Made by a program: the position numbers and the translations under genes
Notes under the pieces: generated by a model
What the model was told of the DNA's origin: nothing
The model's database searches: none
What the model saw: the letters and a program-made list of their open reading frames with translations, nothing else
Assembly (NCBI GenBank): GCA_035526025.1
Contig: DATLDE010000018.1
Coordinates: forward strand, 11,292-75,291
Reading direction: 5' to 3'
DNA: 64,000 nt
Origin: Candidatus Limnocylindrales bacterium
GTDB taxonomy: Bacteria > Patescibacteriota > Microgenomatia > Levybacterales > UBA12049
In this document: piece after piece, positions 1,287-64,000 of the stretch
Numbering within the stretch: position 1 is the stretch's first letter
Layout of the letters: each line of letters opens with the position of its first letter

Positions 1287-1826
1287 ATGAAACTGCTCTC
1301 AAAACTGTTCATATTTATTGGTATCCTCTGTTATATCCTCGGTATTTATAATATATGGCTAATCAATGATCCAAAGCGTTTGTCCTTTCAGAATTATACT
1401 TATGCTCAAGTACCTCAAAGCGTTGAGAAAGTGCTTCCAACTAAAATAAGTATAAGTAATGTAAATATTACTCTTCCTCTGATTCCATCGTCAATTATTG
1501 ATGACAAATGGGAGACTACAGATATCGGAGCCTCTTATCTTTCTTCATCTCCTGTTCCTGGGGAAGTGGGAAATAGTGTGATATACGGGCATAATTGGGC
1601 GAGTATTTTCGGAAACTTGATTAGTATAATGCCGGGTGATGAGGTATTGATTGAATATCAAGATAAAACCACCAAAACATTCATCGTGAAATATACCTCA
1701 ACTGTAAAACCAGAAACTACTAGTATTTTGGCACCTACTTCTGACAAGAGAATTACTTTATATACCTGCAGTGGATTTCTGGATTCTGAAAGATTTGTAG
1801 CAGTCGCTATCCTCAAAGACAACTAA
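1287..1826 (+). CDS. sortase family transpeptidase
   Basis: N-terminal TM anchor. Conserved His in IYGHNWASIFGNL and catalytic Cys in the TLxTC motif (ITLYTCSG). About 180 aa. Confidence 0.8.
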   Translation: MKLLSKLFIFIGILCYILGIYNIWLINDPKRLSFQNYTYAQVPQSVEKVLPTKISISNVNITLPLIPSSIIDDKWETTDIGASYLSSSPVPGEVGNSVIYGHNWASIFGNLISIMPGDEVLIEYQDKTTKTFIVKYTSTVKPETTSILAPTSDKRITLYTCSGFLDSERFVAVAILKDN

Positions 1827-2266: not shown

Positions 2267-3415
2267 CTACAGCTCGCATTGCGTTATCGCTTCTGCCGTA
2301 CAAGTATCTGTGTTAGCGCCACCATCAGCAGCGTCACTACCGGCTTGACCATCTAATGTGTCATCGCCATCTTCACCTTTCAAAGAGTCGCTATCAGCGC
2401 CCCCATAGAGTTTGTCATTACCCGTTCCTCCGGCTAATGCGTCAGATCCTCCTTGGCCTAGCAGGACATCGTTTCCTGCTCCACCTATTAGATTGTCGGA
2501 ACTATCTCCACCGACTATACAGTCAGCGCCTCCTTTTCCATCGACATAATCACTTCCACCTTTGGCCAGGATTAGGTCATTTCCTTCTGTGCCGATTATG
2601 TAATCACTTCCGTTTGTTCCTTCTATTTTGTTATATACAAGATTTTGATTACATTCTGTGGGTACTGGGAATGCATTCACTGGATTTGCTACTACTGTTA
2701 TTTTGTAGACGTTTCCAGCTCCGTTACTCCATGCAGATTCCTCAAATAGAGCATTTCTTGCCCTAACTCTCAGATAATAGTCCCCAGGTGGTGTTCCCGG
2801 AGTTGGAATCTCAGAAGCTGTTAACCAACCGCTTTGAAACACAGAGGTTGTATATCCTGCGTCAGAAAAAGCTTCATATTGGTATTGAAACGGTGGATTA
2901 GAGCCTACTGAATCAGTCCAATCTACCTTAACTAGAGCTGCCTGTGTGACAGTTGCTCCATTTGCCGGAGTGTGAATCCTAGGAACTGATATTCCTTTTG
3001 TTATACTCCAGGTTCCGCTTCGTGGTCCACCGAAATTATCTGTCCAGGTTCCACTCACAGTACCATTTGCAGCAATCGTACCTACCATATTCATAGTTGT
3101 TCCTACTGCGCCCACATCATATACAGCTGTGAGATTTATTGAATTTCCTGTTTGGCTACCAGATGTAACATTCCAATGATAAGTATCTCCGCCTGTTGCC
3201 GGATACCCGCCATTGCCTGTTACAGCAGTGCCGGATTGGGCAAGAGTAGCATGGTGAACGTAAGGCGTAACTGAAGTATCAGGATTCAAAAAGAAACTGA
3301 TTTCGTAATTACCCGTTACATTCCATGGCGCTGCAGCGAAAGCTGGCAACACCGAAACAGCAACTAGCACAATCGATGCTATCATAGCTGTAAAAAGTTT
3401 TAAAATTTTATTCAT
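2267..3415 (-). CDS. secreted protein with C-terminal RTX/hemolysin-type Ca-binding GGxGxD repeats
   Basis: Signal peptide. C-terminal tandem repeats GGSDYVDGKGGADCIVGGDSSDNLIGGAGNDVLLGQGGSDALAGGTGNDKLYGGADSD. Start moved to the internal ATG (MNKIL) because it has the GGAGGTG SD at correct spacing. Confidence 0.65.
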   Translation of the reverse strand: MNKILKLFTAMIASIVLVAVSVLPAFAAAPWNVTGNYEISFFLNPDTSVTPYVHHATLAQSGTAVTGNGGYPATGGDTYHWNVTSGSQTGNSINLTAVYDVGAVGTTMNMVGTIAANGTVSGTWTDNFGGPRSGTWSITKGISVPRIHTPANGATVTQAALVKVDWTDSVGSNPPFQYQYEAFSDAGYTTSVFQSGWLTASEIPTPGTPPGDYYLRVRARNALFEESAWSNGAGNVYKITVVANPVNAFPVPTECNQNLVYNKIEGTNGSDYIIGTEGNDLILAKGGSDYVDGKGGADCIVGGDSSDNLIGGAGNDVLLGQGGSDALAGGTGNDKLYGGADSDSLKGEDGDDTLDGQAGSDAADGGANTDTCTAEAITQCEL

Positions 3416-3548
3416 TTCTATCACCTCCTTTCACCCGCTGAATCTTTACGCGAAAGCGGGTTTCGCTCAAAATTTCGACTATTCGTTCATGATAGTTTTC
3501 ACAGATATCAGTCAGGTTAGGATAACCTAATAAACTCGTAAGAGTAAT

Positions 3549-9674: not shown

Positions 9675-10664
9675 TTAATTTTTGGACTCAAGACTTTTAA
9701 ACAAAACTACAATAAACGATATAAATGGAATAGCAAGTAGCGCCCCGGAAATGCCCATCAAATTTGTACCAATCATAATACCGAGAATTACAACAACCGG
9801 ATTTAAGCCTACTGCTTTTTGCATAACTTTAGGAACAAGAATCTGATTCTCCACAGCCTGAATCAAGACGTATAGTGTAACTACTGCCATTGCCTTGGTT
9901 GGAGAAATGGTAAGTGCGATAACAATAGCAGGAATAGATGAAAGTATAGGTCCGATTGTGGGAACAACTTCAAGTAAGCCGGCAAACAAAGCAAGTGGAA
10001 GTGCATAGGGAAGACCCAAGATAGTAAGACCTATCCAGGAAAACAAACCTATAAATACACAGAGTTGTATTTGCCCTCGAAGCCACGCGCCTAACTTAAA
10101 GTTAATCTGATCCAAAGTTACCAATGCTTTTTCACGAGCATCTTTATGAAACAGATTAGCTACAAATCTTTTAAATGTGTCTTCATACATCAAGAAATAA
10201 AGACTTACTACAGCAACTGTGATAATGGAAAACAGTCCCCCGAACACTTTTGTAGTTACATTAAATGCACTTTTGCCAAAAGTCTCAAATTCGGTACTGA
10301 TATATCTCTCGATTTGTTTAGGGTTGATAGAAACTCCAAATACATCAGCTGATCTGTCGATAAATTTGGGAAAATTTGTGACAAGAGACTGGATCTGATT
10401 TGCGACAAATGGGACAAGGGGGAGAATAAGAAGAAATATCGCAATAATTATCCCAAAATAGGGTATCAAAACTGCTACTACTTTATTTACCCCTCTTTTT
10501 CTAAGATATTCAACCATAGGGAGAACTGCTGCCATGATAATATATGAAAGAAAAATGGAAACAATTATTTCTCTTGTTTGAACAACAAACCAAATTGAGG
10601 CAATAATAAATAAGGCAAAAATCACCTGATTTTTTAATAAATACTTAATGAATTGATGAAACAT
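9675..10664 (-). CDS. AI-2E family transporter (UPF0118/PerM)
   Basis: About 330 aa with 7-8 TM helices and typical AI-2E layout. Paralog at 33700-34683. Confidence 0.8.
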   Translation of the reverse strand: MFHQFIKYLLKNQVIFALFIIASIWFVVQTREIIVSIFLSYIIMAAVLPMVEYLRKRGVNKVVAVLIPYFGIIIAIFLLILPLVPFVANQIQSLVTNFPKFIDRSADVFGVSINPKQIERYISTEFETFGKSAFNVTTKVFGGLFSIITVAVVSLYFLMYEDTFKRFVANLFHKDAREKALVTLDQINFKLGAWLRGQIQLCVFIGLFSWIGLTILGLPYALPLALFAGLLEVVPTIGPILSSIPAIVIALTISPTKAMAVVTLYVLIQAVENQILVPKVMQKAVGLNPVVVILGIMIGTNLMGISGALLAIPFISFIVVLFKSLESKN

Positions 10665-15385: not shown

Positions 15386-15754
15386 ATGAATGAGTTATTC
15401 AGGTTTACAGGAATAGTAATAAGAGGTAAAAACCGGGGAAAAGCTCTGGGTTTCCCGACAGCTAATACCGACATAAGTAAATCTGCAATGCCTGGGATAT
15501 ACATATCAAAAACTATTTACGACAAAAATGAATTTTCATCAATAACATTTATAGGCGAGGTTAAGACTTTTAATGAAAGTAATTTCGCAGCCGAAACATA
15601 TATACTTGATTTCAATCAGGATATATATGGTGAAGAAATTCAAGTTCATATTCTGAAAAAGCTACGTGATAATCAAAAATTTGAATCTGTTGAAAACCTG
15701 ATCCTCCAAATGAAAGAAGATGAAAAACAGACTAGAAAGTATTTCAGAGAATAA
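15386..15754 (+). CDS. monofunctional riboflavin kinase (RibF C-terminal-like domain only)
   Basis: GKNRGKALGFPTAN motif. The 122 aa length leaves no room for an FAD synthetase domain. Confidence 0.7.
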   Translation: MNELFRFTGIVIRGKNRGKALGFPTANTDISKSAMPGIYISKTIYDKNEFSSITFIGEVKTFNESNFAAETYILDFNQDIYGEEIQVHILKKLRDNQKFESVENLILQMKEDEKQTRKYFRE

Positions 15755-31960: not shown

Positions 31961-32467
31961 ATGGTGTATTATATAAAAATGATAAAAGATATTCTTATAA
32001 TGATAGTAATAGGTATTATTTTCCTAGGCACTGTTTTATTTTTCTCACTAAGAGTCAGTAGCAAACCAAACATCGGCACGTCAAACACATCAACACCTGA
32101 AACAGCCAATACCGCGGATGCTCCTCAAGTAGAAGTAAAAATCCCTGACAATTTAAAAATCGACGATTCAGTTGAGGGTACAGGACCAGCCGTAAAATCA
32201 GGTGATACCATCACTATTCACTATGCAGGAAGGCTTGAGGATGGTACGCCATTTGACAGTTCATATGATAGAGGCGAGCCATTTACCACCCAGATAGGTG
32301 TCGGACAAGTTATAAAAGGATGGGATCTGGGAGTAGTTGGTATGAAAGTAGGCGGAAAACGAAAACTTACTATCCCACCAGATCTAGGCTATGGAGATCA
32401 GGATCAAGGCAAAATTCCCCCAAACTCCACACTCATTTTTGATGTTGAGCTGATGGAAATAAAATAG
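31961..32467 (+). CDS. FKBP-type peptidyl-prolyl cis-trans isomerase, membrane-anchored
   Basis: N-terminal TM. FKBP core GDTITIHYAGRLEDGTPFDSSYDRGEPF...VIKGWDLGVVGMKVGGKRKLTIPPDLGYG. Confidence 0.85.
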   Translation: MVYYIKMIKDILIMIVIGIIFLGTVLFFSLRVSSKPNIGTSNTSTPETANTADAPQVEVKIPDNLKIDDSVEGTGPAVKSGDTITIHYAGRLEDGTPFDSSYDRGEPFTTQIGVGQVIKGWDLGVVGMKVGGKRKLTIPPDLGYGDQDQGKIPPNSTLIFDVELMEIK

Positions 32468-33299: not shown

Positions 33300-33653
33300 T
33301 TATTTTATTCCTAGAAGTTCTACTTCAAAGATAAGTGTCGCGTCCCCTGGTATATCAGGATCTACTCCATAACGACCATATGCAAGCTCAGGTGGTATAG
33401 TCAATTTTCTAACCCCCCCGACTTTCATGCCAGGAACTCCCATATCCCATCCTTTTATTACATATCCTGCTCCAATTCTTACTTCAAATGGGGCGTCACG
33501 ATCAACAGAACTATCAAATTTGGTACCATCCTCTAGCCATCCAGTGTAGTGAATTGAAACAAGATCATTTTCTTTTGCAACTTGTCCAGTTCCCATTTCA
33601 ATATCTTCGATTTTAAGTTTCTTGGCATCAGCCATAATTATATTATAAAGCAA
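33300..33653 (-). CDS. FKBP-type peptidyl-prolyl cis-trans isomerase (cytoplasmic)
   Basis: FKBP core IHYTGWLEDGTKFDSSVDRDAPFEVRIGAGYVIKGWDMGVPGMKVGGVRKLTIPPELAYG. Confidence 0.85.
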   Translation of the reverse strand: MLYNIIMADAKKLKIEDIEMGTGQVAKENDLVSIHYTGWLEDGTKFDSSVDRDAPFEVRIGAGYVIKGWDMGVPGMKVGGVRKLTIPPELAYGRYGVDPDIPGDATLIFEVELLGIK

Positions 33654-33699: not shown

Positions 33700-34683
33700 T
33701 TACTTGTCATCCATCTCGTCATGCATAAAATCAGTTATTGCAGGGAGACTAGCAGCAAAAGGAAGTGCCAAGAATGCTCCAACAATTCCAAATAACGAAC
33801 TGCCTATCAGTACAGCCAAAAATCCAAGAGCGGGTGACAGCTTAAGTGCTTTATTGTAAATCGCAGGCGCTATTACAGTCCCTTCCAATTGTTGATAAAT
33901 GAGATAGAGTGCGAGTGTCAAAAATCCGGTAAGAGGAGAAACAGAAAATGCCAAGATCACAGCAGGAATTGCACCAATAGAGGAGCCCACAAGTGGCAAT
34001 AGATCAAATATTGCTGTGAAAATAGCCAACGGCATAGCATATGGGACTTGCAAAATCAGAAGGCCTGTATAAATTATCACACCGCAGATGAGTGAAATTA
34101 GCAAATTTCCTCTTATGTATTGACCGTTGATTTCTCCCAATTTTATTAATAAGCTTTTTACCCTTGCCCGAGTTGACCTATCAAACAATGAAAGAAATAT
34201 AGATGTTAAACGCTCTGAATCAACCAGCAAAAAAAATGTCAATACAAATATAGCAATTGCCGAGCTAATGATATGTGTAATTAATCCTGTTGATTCAAGA
34301 ATATATTTCCCTCCCCTTTCAACATACTGATTGAAGTCAATATTTCGAAGTGACTCAGGAAGAAATAATGAATCGTTTAACAACGAATTCACCTTCTTCA
34401 ACAAGTCAGGAAATTCTGAAATCAAACTTGGGAGCGCTGTTGCTCCGATTAAGAAAAAAGGCAGCACAAGTAAAAGCACAACAAGAAGCGCTGAAATACC
34501 TAAAGGCAATTTTTGATTCACTTTCTTAACGACAGGAAATAATGCAGTCGCAAGCATTATGGAAATAAGAATAACCAGAAGAATACCCGAAGCTTTCCAA
34601 ATAAGATATACGGCGACTAAAGAAACTACTATCCTTATTATTGCTCCAAAACTAAATGGATGCTCCTGAAACTTTACAATCAT
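33700..34683 (-). CDS. AI-2E family transporter (second paralog)
   Basis: 327 aa polytopic protein with the same architecture as 9675-10664. Confidence 0.8.
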   Translation of the reverse strand: MIVKFQEHPFSFGAIIRIVVSLVAVYLIWKASGILLVILISIMLATALFPVVKKVNQKLPLGISALLVVLLLVLPFFLIGATALPSLISEFPDLLKKVNSLLNDSLFLPESLRNIDFNQYVERGGKYILESTGLITHIISSAIAIFVLTFFLLVDSERLTSIFLSLFDRSTRARVKSLLIKLGEINGQYIRGNLLISLICGVIIYTGLLILQVPYAMPLAIFTAIFDLLPLVGSSIGAIPAVILAFSVSPLTGFLTLALYLIYQQLEGTVIAPAIYNKALKLSPALGFLAVLIGSSLFGIVGAFLALPFAASLPAITDFMHDEMDDK

Positions 34684-34731: not shown

Positions 34732-35751
34732 ATGCAGGTTATGCAATATAAATTTCAGCATTCAGTTGTTGGCGGCACTTTTGATAGATTTCATGTTGGG
34801 CACAAAAAACTATTTACTGAAGCTTTCAAATTATCTGATGAAGTTATTATAGGGATTTCAACTTCTAAACTTTATAGTAACAAACCATATTCCCATATTG
34901 TTGAGGACTATCAGGCCCGTAAAACCTTAGTTGAAAACTATCTAAAAAAATATGATTTGTCAGAAAGATCATCAATTGTCCCGATTGATGATATATATGG
35001 GAATACTTTATCAAATGTAAATATTGAAGCAATTTTTGTGACTGACGACACCATAAGTGCAGCTCAAGCTATTAATGCCAAGAGACTTTCATCTGGATTT
35101 GCGGCACTTAAGATTGAAAAAGTTGAATTTGTCCTGGCTGATGACTTGGAAAAAGTATCATCAGAACGTATAAGAAAAGGAGAAATTGACAGAGATGGAA
35201 ATTCATACCATATGCTTTTCTTTGATAAAAAAAGGCTTATTCTTCCTGAAGAATTACGAAGCGATCTTAAAAAACCCTTTGGAAAAGTTATTAAGGATCT
35301 CTCAGAAATTGAGAAATTTATTGATAAAAAAAATATGCTTTTTGCAGTAGGGGACATTATCGTTATGAATTTATATAAAATGAATATAAATCCCGATATA
35401 AGTATAATAGACTATAAAACAAGACGGCATGCTCTTAACGTTGAGGATAAGATGCTACTTGAATCAATATCTAAAAAGGAGAATGTACTTAATGCTGAAA
35501 ATACCCCCGGAACAATTGAAAGACGCGCAGTAGGAATAATCAGAAGAGCCTTTGAGGATTTATCAAAAACAAATCGCCAACAAATGATAATAGTAGATGG
35601 TGAAGAAGATCTGCTGACACTCCCAATTATTGCCTTATCCCCTCTTGACTCAATAGTCCTATATGGCCAACCAGACAAAGGAATAGTTATGGTAAAAGTA
35701 ACTGAAAAAAAGAAAAAAGAAGTAAAATATTTTTTGAGCAAAATGCGCTGA
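34732..35751 (+). CDS. fusion: archaeal/eukaryal-type phosphopantetheine adenylyltransferase-like nucleotidyltransferase + DUF359 (GTP-dependent dephospho-CoA kinase-like)
   Basis: N-terminal GGTFDRFHVGH (HxGH nucleotidyltransferase). C-terminal AVGDIIVMN...DYKTRR resembles the DUF359 core. Confidence 0.5.
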   Translation: MQVMQYKFQHSVVGGTFDRFHVGHKKLFTEAFKLSDEVIIGISTSKLYSNKPYSHIVEDYQARKTLVENYLKKYDLSERSSIVPIDDIYGNTLSNVNIEAIFVTDDTISAAQAINAKRLSSGFAALKIEKVEFVLADDLEKVSSERIRKGEIDRDGNSYHMLFFDKKRLILPEELRSDLKKPFGKVIKDLSEIEKFIDKKNMLFAVGDIIVMNLYKMNINPDISIIDYKTRRHALNVEDKMLLESISKKENVLNAENTPGTIERRAVGIIRRAFEDLSKTNRQQMIIVDGEEDLLTLPIIALSPLDSIVLYGQPDKGIVMVKVTEKKKKEVKYFLSKMR

Positions 35752-43483: not shown

Positions 43484-43885
43484 TTATTCCATAAGCCATG
43501 AAAGAATCGAAACAATAAGCGAAATCACAACTGCGCTGATTACATAGGCTAAATAAATGTTAAAACTCACACCTGGTGTTGAAAAACCTAAAAAACTGAC
43601 TTCCGGATATTCAAAGGGATTTATCGTAATTCCCTCGACAAACATAGTCATTAGATACAGAATAAATGCATTTGAAATCACTGAAAATAAACCCAAAGTA
43701 ACTAGTCTTATCGGAAAACTAATTATATTAATAATCGGCTTCAAAACTAAGAACATCAAAGCAAGAAGTGCACCACCTATAAAAATAGTTTCGAGTCCAC
43801 CTGCAATTTTAACTCCAGGAACAACTGAGGGAAGAGCAAAAAGCGCAAAAGTATAAACTGCTATTTTTCGAAGAATAGTTTTCAC
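43484..43885 (-). CDS. DUF360 / phage-holin-family-4-like membrane protein
   Basis: 4-TM protein of 133 aa with LVTLGLFSVISNAFILYLMTMFVEG resembling the DUF360 core. Confidence 0.5.
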   Translation of the reverse strand: MKTILRKIAVYTFALFALPSVVPGVKIAGGLETIFIGGALLALMFLVLKPIINIISFPIRLVTLGLFSVISNAFILYLMTMFVEGITINPFEYPEVSFLGFSTPGVSFNIYLAYVISAVVISLIVSILSWLME

Positions 43886-58205: not shown

Positions 58206-58583
58206 ATGGAATGGAACGACGCAAAAGACGTAGAAAAAGACTTGATTAAAGTATTGAATATTATTGATTTGCCGTATATTGATAAAAAAAAGATTCATTG
58301 CTACCGTACGACAGGATCCAAAACACGGGCATATGCAAGAACTTGGGCTTTTCCCAAAATTTTTCAACGCGCATTGAGTGTTGAACCTGCATATGTAATA
58401 GAGGTCTTGTCAGATCATTATGACAAACTCGATCATGATGCTAAAATGAAAGTCTTAATTCACGAACTTCTCCATATACCCAAAAACTTTTCTGGGGCAT
58501 TACTTCCACATAAGACTAGAAGCCGTAATCTTCATACTCTCGCAAACCAACTATATAAAGAATATAAAAGTAAAACAAAATGA
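58206..58583 (+). CDS. SprT/WLM-like small HExxH protein
   Basis: VLIHELLHIP (HExxH) in a 125 aa protein. Confidence 0.4.
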   Translation: MEWNDAKDVEKDLIKVLNIIDLPYIDKKKIHCYRTTGSKTRAYARTWAFPKIFQRALSVEPAYVIEVLSDHYDKLDHDAKMKVLIHELLHIPKNFSGALLPHKTRSRNLHTLANQLYKEYKSKTK

Positions 58584-62928: not shown

Positions 62929-64000
62929 TTATTTTTGCTGATCGTGGGGAACTATTACATTTACTGACTCGCTCGCTTTATTTCCTGCCATATCTTCAGT
63001 TGATGCTTCAACGCTATAAATTCTGCCATTTTTATCATCACCATTTCTTTTTGCCTGAAGCTTTATCGTTTGGTTAAAACTTGTCAAAACAGGCTCTACC
63101 AAATTATATTCATCAGTAACTTTAAATTTGGTGTTATATGGATTTACTTCCGCAACATCTCCTGAGATCCTTACATCAACCATTTTTCCGTTTGGTGGCC
63201 AAATGTATTGTGGGGTTGCACCAATAGAAATTGCAGGTGGTGTTTTATCAATTTTTATGATCATGCTCCTGGCCTCTTCTTTATTACCGGCAATATCTTC
63301 AGAGTAATACAATAATTTATATTCACCTTCTTCATTAAAAATAAGTGGTTCCAAATATTCAGAGTAATTTACACCATTGTCGATGGAATAATAAGAAGTT
63401 TTGTAACCTGATCCTTCATCATTACCAGTTAACGATATCTCAACATTGCTCCTGTACCAATTTTCCCGGCCTCTTAATCCTGAGGTGTAGACAATTGTAC
63501 TCGGAGATATTTTGTCTATCTTAATAGAAAGTTTTTTTGCTATCTCTACATTTCCAGCTTTGTCTACAGATCGGTATAATATTTCTGTTTTACCTTCCTT
63601 GCTGATCTTAATTTGCCCAGTGTAAGCCTGATATTCCTCACTGTCACCCAAAGCATACTCTGATCTTGAAACACCAGATCTATCGTCATGTGAAACTAAA
63701 AACACTTCTACGTCCGATACATACCATCCATTCTCTCCTTTTGTACCGGCTGTCCCAGCTGAGGTGCTTGGCGAAGTTTTATCAATACTAAATTTCTTGG
63801 TTTTTCTGTCTTCGTTATTATTTGCCTTATCAAATGATTGATAACTAATCTGATGATTTCCTTCTTCCTCAACATTTATTGGCACCAAATACTCAGACCA
63901 TTCATTATCGTCAAAAGAATTTAGCACATACTGCATGCCAAGACCTCCATCGTTGTCCATTCCGTTTAATTCTATCGCGACTGTTGATCTGTACCATTCA
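62929..64000 (-). CDS. secreted tandem Ig-like/beta-sandwich repeat protein, 5'-truncated at the window end
   Basis: Repeats DKxSPST...G.NGWY..DVEV.L...D..SGV..S.Y. The ORF runs off the 3' edge of the window, so the N-terminus is missing. Confidence 0.5.
   Translation of the reverse strand, partial: EWYRSTVAIELNGMDNDGGLGMQYVLNSFDDNEWSEYLVPINVEEEGNHQISYQSFDKANNNEDRKTKKFSIDKTSPSTSAGTAGTKGENGWYVSDVEVFLVSHDDRSGVSRSEYALGDSEEYQAYTGQIKISKEGKTEILYRSVDKAGNVEIAKKLSIKIDKISPSTIVYTSGLRGRENWYRSNVEISLTGNDEGSGYKTSYYSIDNGVNYSEYLEPLIFNEEGEYKLLYYSEDIAGNKEEARSMIIKIDKTPPAISIGATPQYIWPPNGKMVDVRISGDVAEVNPYNTKFKVTDEYNLVEPVLTSFNQTIKLQAKRNGDDKNGRIYSVEASTEDMAGNKASESVNVIVPHDQQK

What the first reader, a model, noticed from the sequence alone, without database searches (positions are those of the whole stretch)
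34732..35751. Single polypeptide combining archaeal/eukaryal-type PPAT-like domain and DUF359 (GTP-dependent dephospho-CoA kinase-like) domain
The N-terminus has GGTFDRFHVGH, the HxGH cytidylyltransferase-fold signature in the form typical of archaeal/eukaryal PPAT rather than bacterial CoaD (GSFDPITNGH). The C-terminal half has the GD and DxKTRR features of DUF359, the archaeal DPCK. A fusion of the last two CoA-biosynthesis steps of archaeal type in a bacterium would be notable, and would explain an apparent lack of coaD/coaE.
Basis: partly seen in the sequence, partly recalled or inferred. Interest (0 to 1): 0.55.

Follow-up and report, generated by a model that had tools for sequence, protein, structure and literature searches.

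The report
Archaeal-type two-step CoA synthase fusion
This gene of an ultra-small (Patescibacteria/CPR) bacterium encodes one protein that joins the archaeal versions of the last two enzymes of coenzyme A synthesis; the design is already known from archaea and turns out to be common in this bacterial group, so it is real and useful for annotation but not a new kind of system.

Summary
ORF 34732-35751 (+), 339 aa (likely true start 34741, 336 aa), has an N-terminal archaeal-type phosphopantetheine adenylyltransferase (PPAT) domain. It scores 138.9 bits on NCBIfam NF001985 (cutoff 104), against 22.7 bits on bacterial CoaD. The C-terminal domain is DUF359, the GTP-dependent dephospho-CoA kinase (DPCK) family (Pfam E 1e-35; PDB 8JVC, TK1697, E 1e-24).

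The HxGH and SSERIR motifs are present. So are the three Asp residues shown by mutagenesis to matter in TK1697 (here D208, D227, D293). All are invariant or nearly so across 70 homologues. An AlphaFold model (pLDDT 95.8) matches the TK1697 and archaeal PPAT structures.

The flanks are bacterial (UvrA, UvrC) and syntenic with a 1.14-Mb Patescibacteria-like contig. The public label 'Limnocylindrales' looks wrong.

This fusion was the clue that identified archaeal DPCK (Shimosaka 2019, marine group II archaea). I found hundreds of fused homologues, and every genomic context I checked was bacterial and CPR-like.

The likely role is to turn 4'-phosphopantetheine into CoA. I saw no coaD, coaE, coaBC or panK in the 64 kb, but the whole genome could not be checked.

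Verdict: a new (bacterial) member of a known kind, of moderate interest.

The parts
34732..35751 (+). Gene for the bifunctional PPAT-DPCK protein (339 aa; the probable real start is the ATG at 34741, giving 336 aa)
   Evidence: ORF list. A 100% identical 336-aa public protein, P0001. Homologue N-termini. GC and codon usage are typical of the window (GC z = -1.1; 12 of the 60 genes have a smaller codon-usage distance).
34753..35211 (+). PPAT (phosphopantetheine adenylyltransferase) domain of archaeal/eukaryal type, residues ~8-160
   Evidence: NCBIfam NF001985 scores 138.9 bits (cutoff 104) over residues 7-159. PDB 3DO8 matches at E 5.5e-18. Foldseek gives TM 0.78-0.84 to 3DO8, followed by dozens of bacterial PPAT structures.
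34792..34803 (+). HxGH nucleotidyltransferase motif (H21-V-G-H24) inside GGTFDRFHVGH (34771-34803)
   Evidence: Read directly from the sequence. G15, F17, D18, H21, G23 and H24 are invariant in the 70-sequence alignment A1.
35158..35175 (+). SSERIR motif (residues 143-148), the second nucleotide-binding motif of this transferase superfamily
   Evidence: S144, R146, I147 and R148 are at least 90% conserved in A1. The motif aligns with ISSTRIK of 3DO8.
35212..35241 (+). Short linker (residues ~161-170) joining the end of the PPAT domain to the start of the kinase domain
   Evidence: The PDB alignments end at residue 157 (3DO8) and begin at residue 171 (8JVC). The model is confident throughout, with pTM 0.91.
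35242..35745 (+). DUF359 / archaeal-type (GTP-dependent) dephospho-CoA kinase domain, residues 171-338
   Evidence: Pfam PF04019 at E 1.1e-35. NCBIfam NF041125 at E 1.6e-33 over residues 171-338. PDB 8JVC (TK1697) at E 1.1e-24. Foldseek TM 0.84-0.86.
35353..35355 (+). D208 (in VGD), equivalent to catalytic D48 of TK1697
   Evidence: Alignment to 8JVC. Mutagenesis is reported in PMC6650551. The residue is 100% conserved in 141 stand-alone and 152 fused sequences.
35410..35427 (+). D227-YKT-R-R232 motif; D227 is equivalent to catalytic D67 of TK1697
   Evidence: D227 and R232 are 99-100% conserved family-wide.
35599..35613 (+). GEEDL motif; D293 is equivalent to D125 of TK1697
   Evidence: G-E-E-D-L is 98-100% conserved in both stand-alone and fused sequences.

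Best explanation
The gene encodes a bifunctional 'CoA synthase' built from the two archaeal-type enzymes for the last two steps of coenzyme A synthesis.

**Step 1 (inferred from homology).** The N-terminal PPAT domain transfers AMP from ATP to 4'-phosphopantetheine. This gives dephospho-CoA and pyrophosphate, using the HxGH and SSERIR motifs.

**Step 2 (inferred from homology to TK1697).** The C-terminal DUF359 kinase domain phosphorylates the 3'-OH of dephospho-CoA to give CoA. It uses the Asp triad D208/D227/D293. GTP is the probable phosphate donor, as in Thermococcus.

The end-to-end fusion keeps the two activities at a fixed 1:1 ratio and close together.

**Host and physiological role.** The host is a small-genome Patescibacteria (CPR) bacterium. 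In that group this fused gene is widespread and takes the place of bacterial CoaD plus CoaE. The most likely role (inferred, not shown) is a truncated pathway that turns scavenged 4'-phosphopantetheine, or pantetheine-derived material from a host cell, into CoA.
For: **Domain identity.** Pfam PF01467 and PF04019 both hit. NCBIfam archaeal PPAT is above its curated cutoff, and DPCK models hit at E 1e-33. PDB TK1697 DPCK matches at E 1e-24 and archaeal PPAT 3DO8 at E 5e-18.

**Catalytic residues.** D48, D67 and D125 of TK1697 were validated by mutagenesis. They align to D208, D227 and D293 and are 99-100% conserved in 293 family members. HxGH and SSERIR are conserved.

**Structure.** The AlphaFold model has pLDDT 95.8 and pTM 0.91. 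Foldseek gives TM 0.84-0.86 to TK1697 and 0.78-0.84 to 3DO8, and the next-best N-domain neighbours are almost all PPATs.

**The gene is native and bacterial.** Its neighbours are UvrA, UvrC, FKBP and AI-2E genes. It is syntenic with a 1.14-Mb contig. Its composition is typical of the window.

**Distribution.** 422 homologous proteins (representatives of 90% clusters) were found, and the top 120 are all two-domain. All eight contexts inspected are bacterial, with GreA, sigma-70, L7/L12, MurB and PBP genes.

**Truncated pathway.**
- No CoaBC, PanK, CoaD or CoaE was found in the 64 kb.
- Saccharibacteria are reported to lack complete CoA and pantothenate modules.
- PPAT+DPCK-only scavenging of 4'-phosphopantetheine is an established proposal for mycoplasmas.
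Against: No enzymatic activity has been measured for any bacterial member. GTP preference is extrapolated from a single archaeal enzyme.

The Thermococcales DPCK equivalog model is not reached (115.7 bits against a cutoff of 300), although that model is lineage-specific.

Only 64 kb of a genome of roughly 1 Mb was visible. Upstream CoA genes, or a canonical coaE, may exist elsewhere, so the scavenging role is unproven.

No transporter for 4'-phosphopantetheine is identified, and the gene has no conserved CoA-related neighbours.
Confidence: 0.8

Rival explanations
1. The enzyme identity is the same, but the protein is the end of a complete de novo or pantothenate-dependent CoA pathway. CoaBC and a pantothenate kinase would be encoded elsewhere in the genome, and the fusion merely replaces CoaD/CoaE.
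For: Only 64 kb of the genome was available. [quoted passage not shown]
Against: No such gene was found in the window or in about 150 kb of related loci. Saccharibacteria are reported to lack CoA and pantothenate modules.
Confidence: 0.25
2. The two domains act on other substrates. The N-domain could be an FMN, NMN or sugar-phosphate nucleotidyltransferase, and DUF359 a kinase for another cofactor (it is distantly related to thiamine pyrophosphokinase).
For: There is a weak FAD_syn hit (E 0.003) and weak NMNAT hits (E about 1e-6). The window has a stand-alone riboflavin kinase with no FAD synthetase half. PF01467 is a broad superfamily.
Against: The PPAT subfamily model is the only one above its cutoff. 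Apart from a few two-domain transferases (3ELB, 4XSV, 1LW7), the structural neighbours of the N-domain are PPATs. In triple-fusion relatives a separate, clearly NMNAT-like domain sits in front of this PPAT domain, so the PPAT domain is not the NMNAT. All DUF359 family-invariant residues are kept. The fusion of two consecutive steps is itself functional evidence, and it was used successfully in archaea.
Confidence: 0.07
3. The gene is an artefact: an archaeal fragment mis-assembled or mis-binned into a bacterial contig, or a frameshift-fused pair of genes.
For: The public taxonomy labels of this and related contigs are inconsistent (Limnocylindrales, Lysobacterales, Xanthomonadales).
Against: The same gene order (AI-2E, fusion, UvrA, transglutaminase-like, UvrC) recurs in an independent 1.14-Mb contig and in L001. 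Composition is typical of the window. Hundreds of independent fused homologues exist with conserved length.
Confidence: 0.01
4. Only one half is catalytically active, and the other serves as a regulatory or binding module.
For: No direct evidence; this is a generic possibility for fused enzymes.
Against: The catalytic motifs of both halves are invariant or nearly so across 70-293 sequences.
Confidence: 0.05

Closest known systems
Thermococcus kodakarensis TK1697, GTP-dependent dephospho-CoA kinase (DUF359 / arCOG04076; PDB 8JVC, 8JVF, 8JVG)
   Same: It is homologous to residues 171-338 (E 1e-24, about 33% identity) and has the same fold (TM 0.84-0.86). The three functionally tested Asp residues and all family-invariant residues are identical.
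   Different: TK1697 is a stand-alone 19.7-kDa (175-177 aa) archaeal protein. Here the domain is the C-terminal half of a bacterial two-domain protein. The phosphate donor is untested here.
Archaeal PPAT (COG1019; T. kodakarensis TK2128, P. abyssi PPAT, A. fulgidus PDB 3DO8)
   Same: It is homologous to residues 8-160. The NCBIfam subfamily model is above its cutoff. The HxGH and ISSxRIR motifs and the fold are shared.
   Different: Those proteins are stand-alone and archaeal. The window protein continues directly into the kinase after the GEIDRxG end of the PPAT domain.
PPAT-arCOG04076 fusion of uncultured marine group II/III archaea (AIF21550.1 in Shimosaka 2019; the P0350 cluster here, Poseidoniales/Thalassarchaeaceae)
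   Same: The domain order and composition are the same (PPAT then DUF359, about 348 aa).
   Different: There is no special sequence affinity between the two fused groups.

- The window's kinase half scores 59.6 bits to P0350, against 92-114 bits to stand-alone archaeal kinases.
- Its PPAT half scores 64.9 bits to P0350, against 64-80 bits to stand-alone archaeal PPATs.
- P0350 falls outside the CPR clade in a neighbour-joining tree.

This suggests, but does not prove, independent fusions. The linker is about 25 aa in the archaeal protein and about 10 aa here.
Eukaryotic CoA synthase (COASY)
   Same: It is one polypeptide with PPAT followed by DPCK, and its PPAT is of the same archaeal/eukaryal class (from established knowledge; notes the eukaryotic fusion).
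   Different: The COASY kinase domain is a P-loop CoaE-type kinase, unrelated in fold to DUF359. The resemblance in architecture is therefore convergent.
Bacterial CoaD + CoaE
   Same: They catalyse the same two reactions. CoaD shares the nucleotidyltransferase fold (TM about 0.6-0.68).
   Different: The CoaD model scores only 22.7 bits against a cutoff of 103.3. There is no CoaE/P-loop similarity at all. In typical bacteria these are two separate genes.

Membership tests
Archaeal/eukaryal-type PPAT (NCBIfam NF001985 / PRK00777; COG1019) | Profile score at or above the curated cutoff | tested here: met
   138.9 bits against a cutoff of 104, residues 7-159
Archaeal/eukaryal-type PPAT (NCBIfam NF001985 / PRK00777; COG1019) | HxGH and ISxxRIR nucleotide-binding motifs | tested here: met
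   H21-V-G-H24 and S143-S-E-R-I-R148 are present. They are invariant or at least 90% conserved in 70 homologues.
Archaeal/eukaryal-type PPAT (NCBIfam NF001985 / PRK00777; COG1019) | Nucleotidyltransferase fold closest to PPAT structures | tested here: met
   Foldseek gives TM 0.78-0.84 to 3DO8, then dozens of CoaD PPAT structures.
Archaeal/eukaryal-type PPAT (NCBIfam NF001985 / PRK00777; COG1019) | Adenylylation of 4'-phosphopantetheine | not testable with these tools
   Needs an enzyme assay or complementation.
GTP-dependent dephospho-CoA kinase (Pfam PF04019 DUF359; arCOG04076) | Pfam score at or above the gathering cutoff | tested here: met
   122.5 bits against a cutoff of 25, E 1.1e-35
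GTP-dependent dephospho-CoA kinase (Pfam PF04019 DUF359; arCOG04076) | Asp triad shown by mutagenesis in TK1697 (D48, D67, D125) | tested here: met
   D208, D227 and D293 align to the triad and are 99-100% conserved in 293 sequences.
GTP-dependent dephospho-CoA kinase (Pfam PF04019 DUF359; arCOG04076) | Fold of the TK1697 crystal structure | tested here: met
   TM 0.84-0.86 and E 5e-16 to 8JVC/8JVG, from a model with pLDDT 95.8
GTP-dependent dephospho-CoA kinase (Pfam PF04019 DUF359; arCOG04076) | NCBIfam equivalog NF041125 (Thermococcales DPCK) cutoff | tested here: not met
   115.7 bits against a cutoff of 300. The model is lineage-specific, so this excludes close orthology to Thermococcales proteins, not family membership.
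GTP-dependent dephospho-CoA kinase (Pfam PF04019 DUF359; arCOG04076) | DPCK activity with GTP as the preferred donor | not testable with these tools
   Needs an enzyme assay. The paper on the ligand-bound structures was not available.
PPAT-DUF359 fusion proteins (first noted in marine group II/III archaea) | PPAT then DUF359 in one reading frame | tested here: met
   A single ORF with both domains. The same architecture appears in 120 of the 120 top homologues.
PPAT-DUF359 fusion proteins (first noted in marine group II/III archaea) | Common descent with the archaeal fused gene | tested here: inconclusive
   The archaeal fused protein P0350 lies outside the CPR clade, and both halves of the window protein score no better to it than to stand-alone archaeal enzymes. 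However, the NJ tree has no bootstrap support.
Bacterial CoaD (TIGR01510) and CoaE (P-loop DPCK) | Profile scores at or above the cutoffs | tested here: not met
   CoaD scores 22.7 bits against a cutoff of 103.3. There is no CoaE hit at E <= 1.

The most novel reading that the evidence does not exclude
Patescibacteria as a group have replaced bacterial CoaD/CoaE with an archaeal-type PPAT-DPCK fusion. This fusion arose independently of the one in marine group II archaea. In some lineages it is further fused to an archaeal-type NMN adenylyltransferase. It is their only route to CoA, working on 4'-phosphopantetheine taken from the host cell. If so, the 'CoA auxotrophy' reported for these bacteria in pathway-module surveys would be partly an annotation artefact, because pipelines name only the PPAT half.
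Probability: 0.4. Interest if true: 0.55.

Novelty: new member of a known kind. Interest (0 to 1): 0.4.

Why it matters
**Annotation.** The public copy of this protein and most of its relatives are named only 'pantetheine-phosphate adenylyltransferase' or 'cytidyltransferase-like'. The kinase half, and with it the ability to finish CoA, is missed in metabolic reconstructions of ultra-small bacteria.

**Biology.** The DUF359 kinase, described as an archaeal invention, is widespread in one large bacterial radiation. That adds to the list of archaeal-type enzymes in that group. It also points to a concrete, testable dependency: uptake of 4'-phosphopantetheine from a host, which could help in cultivating these organisms.

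**Limits.** The architecture and the chemistry are already known, so the gain is in distribution and annotation, not in mechanism.

Tried and rejected
- **Exact look-up of P0001.** The protein was not on record.
- **Cluster look-ups for names.** These were mostly empty. Only one search gave taxon names (Gottesmanbacteria, Poseidoniales).
- **Foldseek against afdb50.** I wanted organism names for full-length matches, but the library was unavailable.
- **Literature searches.** I searched for DUF359, arCOG04076, the KEGG orthologues K09735 and K02201, and CoA synthesis in CPR. No paper describes this fusion in bacteria. Absence from this open-access library is not proof of absence.
- **Paper on the TK1697 crystal structure.** It was not held, so GTP-binding residues could not be compared.
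- **Neighbour-joining tree of 293 DUF359 domains with 100 bootstraps.** CPR sequences cluster together (145 of 152 fused sequences in one clade), but the split has no bootstrap support. I do not claim monophyly or a donor lineage.
- **Second small PF01467 gene near the fusion in L008/L010 as a canonical coaD.** Rejected: it is RfaE-domain-II-like.
- **Recent horizontal transfer.** Rejected: GC and codon usage are typical of the window.
- **The 'Limnocylindrales' label.** Considered unreliable.

Full report
**Observation**

The window holds an uninterrupted ORF at exactly 34732-35751 on the + strand (339 aa).
- GGTFDRFHVGH at residues 14-24
- VGD at residues 206-208
- IDYKTRR at residues 226-232
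- GEEDL at residues 290-294

The second ATG, at 34741, is the more likely start. The identical public protein has 336 aa, and homologues have the same distance from Met to GGTFD. No Shine-Dalgarno-like sequence or terminator stands out.

**Domain identity**

Pfam finds CTP_transf_like (PF01467, residues 12-149, E 4e-13) and DUF359 (PF04019, residues 212-338, E 1.1e-35, 122.5 bits against a cutoff of 25).

NCBIfam places the N-terminal half in the archaeal-type PPAT subfamily NF001985 at 138.9 bits, above the curated cutoff of 104. Bacterial CoaD (TIGR01510) reaches only 22.7 bits against 103.3.

The C-terminal half hits the Thermococcales GTP-dependent DPCK model at E 1.6e-33 (115.7 bits). That is below its lineage-specific equivalog cutoff of 300.

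Against solved structures, the best sequence matches are:
- TK1697 DPCK (8JVC, E 1.1e-24, residues 171-337)
- the A. fulgidus PPAT-like protein 3DO8 (E 5.5e-18, residues 12-157)

**Catalytic residues**

Shimosaka et al. (PMC6650551) showed that D48A and D67A cripple TK1697 function in vivo, and that D125A does so more weakly. In the HMMER alignment these residues correspond to D208, D227 and D293 of the window protein.

I aligned 293 DUF359 domains (141 stand-alone, 152 fused). The G-D, D...R, N, GEEDL, YGQ and G positions are 97-100% conserved in both groups, and all are present here.

In a 70-sequence full-length alignment, G15, F17, D18, H21, G23 and H24 are invariant, and S144, R146, I147 and R148 are at least 90% conserved.

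**Structure**

AlphaFold2 with that alignment gives mean pLDDT 95.8 and pTM 0.91, with no low-confidence segment.

Foldseek against the PDB returns, in order:
1. the TK1697 structures (TM 0.84-0.86 normalised to the target)
2. 3DO8 (TM 0.78-0.84)
3. a long run of bacterial PPAT/CoaD structures (TM about 0.6-0.68)

So the N-domain's structural neighbours are PPATs, apart from a few two-domain transferases (3ELB, 4XSV, 1LW7), not NMN or FMN adenylyltransferases.

**Organism and context**

The flanking genes are bacterial. An AI-2E transporter is upstream and divergent, and uvrA is immediately downstream. A transglutaminase-like gene, uvrC and a solute-binding protein follow.

The rest of the window has sortase, DinB, HflX, phosphoglucomutase, a bacterial-type PGI, a stand-alone flavokinase, many unassignable ORFs and nine tRNAs. 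Gene GC averages about 37%.

The same gene order recurs on a 1.14-Mb contig (L002) and on L001.

Named close relatives are as follows:
- of the fusion protein: Saccharimonadales, Roizmanbacteria, Curtissbacteria, Gottesmanbacteria and 'Patescibacteria group'
- of UvrA: Roizmanbacteria, Levybacteria, Saccharimonadales and 'Patescibacteria group'

The label 'Candidatus Limnocylindrales' on the identical public proteins, and labels such as Lysobacterales, Xanthomonadales and Methylomirabilota on neighbouring hits, all come from 'MAG TPA' records. They conflict with all of this evidence, so I take the host to be a Patescibacteria (CPR) bacterium of uncertain class.

The gene's GC (32.8%, z = -1.1) and codon usage are typical of the window, so it is not a recent import.

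**Distribution**

The window protein retrieves 422 homologous proteins (representatives of 90% clusters), and all of the best 120 carry both domains.

TK1697 retrieves 2386 clusters at 50% identity, and 16 of the best 150 are fused.

I inspected eight fused-gene contexts. All are bacterial, with genes such as GreA, sigma-70, ribosomal protein L7/L12, MurB, class A PBP, TsaD and RecR. None contains a CoA gene next to the fusion.

A second small PF01467 gene near the fusion in two loci is RfaE-domain-II-like, not CoaD.

**Relation to the archaeal fusion**

The published archaeal fusion (marine group II/III) is represented here by the P0350 cluster, named Poseidoniales/Thalassarchaeaceae.

In a neighbour-joining tree of the kinase domain, 145 of 152 fused sequences fall in one clade. 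That clade also holds Gottesmanbacteria 'stand-alone' ORFs. P0350 falls outside it, but no deep split has bootstrap support.

Pairwise bit scores agree with this picture.

| Window half | Score to P0350 (archaeal fused) | Score to stand-alone archaeal enzymes |
|---|---|---|
| Kinase | 59.6 bits | 92-114 bits |
| PPAT | 64.9 bits | 64-80 bits |

The kinase half of P0350 is itself closer to stand-alone archaeal kinases (median 74.5 bits) than to CPR fused ones (median 60.8 bits).

This suggests independent fusions in the two domains of life. It could also reflect fast evolution in the marine archaea. I leave it open.

**Mechanism**

What is shown is homology, conserved catalytic residues and fold for both halves. 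The chemistry is inferred:
1. The PPAT domain makes dephospho-CoA from 4'-phosphopantetheine and ATP.
2. The DUF359 domain phosphorylates dephospho-CoA to CoA, probably with GTP.

The physiological setting is also inferred. No CoaBC, PanK, CoaD or CoaE is present in the 64 kb, including the gaps between the called genes. Saccharibacteria are reported to lack complete CoA and pantothenate modules. A PPAT+DPCK-only route that scavenges 4'-phosphopantetheine has been proposed for mycoplasmas.

**Comparison with what is known, and novelty**

The PPAT-arCOG04076 fusion in uncultured archaea was the published clue that led to the identification of archaeal DPCK. The architecture and chemistry are therefore known.

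That paper reported that PSI-BLAST found only archaeal members. None of my searches of the open-access library found a paper describing the fusion, or DUF359, in CPR bacteria.

Databases do contain the proteins. NCBI and JGI mostly name only the PPAT half, or call it 'cytidyltransferase-like'. One JGI name and one UniRef name recognise the DUF359/DPCK part.

I therefore rate this as a new (bacterial) member of a known kind. Its value lies in annotation and in understanding what ultra-small bacteria must take from their hosts.

**Limits**

- There is no enzymology for any bacterial member.
- The phosphate donor is unknown.
- Taxonomy rests on sparse names and gene content.
- The phylogeny is distance-based and unsupported.
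- The genome-wide absence of other CoA genes is untested.

Noticed in passing
Related proteins P0041, P0064, P0076, P0082, P0086, P0089, P0094, P0101, P0102, P0113, P0115, P0116, P0117; locus L005 10001-11506: Relatives of about 500 aa carry a third, N-terminal domain (GRFQPFHKGH...) that scores as archaeal-type NMN adenylyltransferase (NF002243 123 bits, TIGR01527 111 bits). This gives an NMNAT-PPAT-DPCK triple fusion that would finish both NAD and CoA. In L005 it lies next to NAD synthase, thiamine pyrophosphokinase and thiamine-transport genes.
   Followed up: partly
window 15386-15754 (+): A stand-alone riboflavin kinase, 122 aa, matches only the C-terminal half of bacterial RibF. No FAD synthetase half was seen anywhere in the window.
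   Followed up: partly
whole window; L001; public proteins P0001 and P0393: The identical public contig is labelled 'Candidatus Limnocylindrales bacterium' and L001 'Lysobacterales bacterium'. Other near-identical UvrA hits are labelled Xanthomonadales, Methylomirabilota or Acidoferrales. All are 'MAG TPA' records. Gene content, about 36% GC, synteny with a 1.14-Mb contig and consistently named relatives point to Patescibacteria, so these labels look like binning or classification errors.
   Followed up: partly
P0333, P0344, P0372 (Candidatus Gottesmanbacteria) and their cluster members P0514, P0519: Some Gottesmanbacteria records have a 'stand-alone' DUF359 ORF of 183-190 aa, while members of the same 90% clusters are 345-355 aa and fused. 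These are either genuinely split genes or gene-calling/frameshift artefacts. UniRef already names one of them 'GTP-dependent dephospho-CoA kinase'.
   Followed up: no
L008 5656-6264 (-) and L010 2297-2779 (-): A second small cytidylyltransferase-family gene sits in a conserved VanW / this gene / DUF192 / TsaD block near the fusion. It is RfaE-domain-II-like (105-110 bits) and not CoaD. Its substrate is unknown.
   Followed up: partly
window 31961-32467 (+) and 33300-33653 (-); 9675-10664 (-) and 33700-34683 (-): There are two FKBP-type prolyl isomerase genes and two AI-2E family transporter genes in the window, one of each close to the fusion gene. The same FKBP/AI-2E neighbourhood recurs in L002.
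   Followed up: no
window 43484-43885 (-) and 58206-58583 (+): There is a phage-holin-family (Phage_holin_4_2) gene and a 'putative phage metallopeptidase' gene. The holin-like gene is also conserved next to secG in L002, so it is probably a resident membrane protein rather than a prophage remnant.
   Followed up: no
window 2267-3424 (-), 1287-1826 (+), 62929-63960 (-): Three cell-surface genes are present: an RTX calcium-binding repeat protein, a sortase and a bacterial Ig-like domain protein. They fit an attached, epibiotic lifestyle.
   Followed up: no
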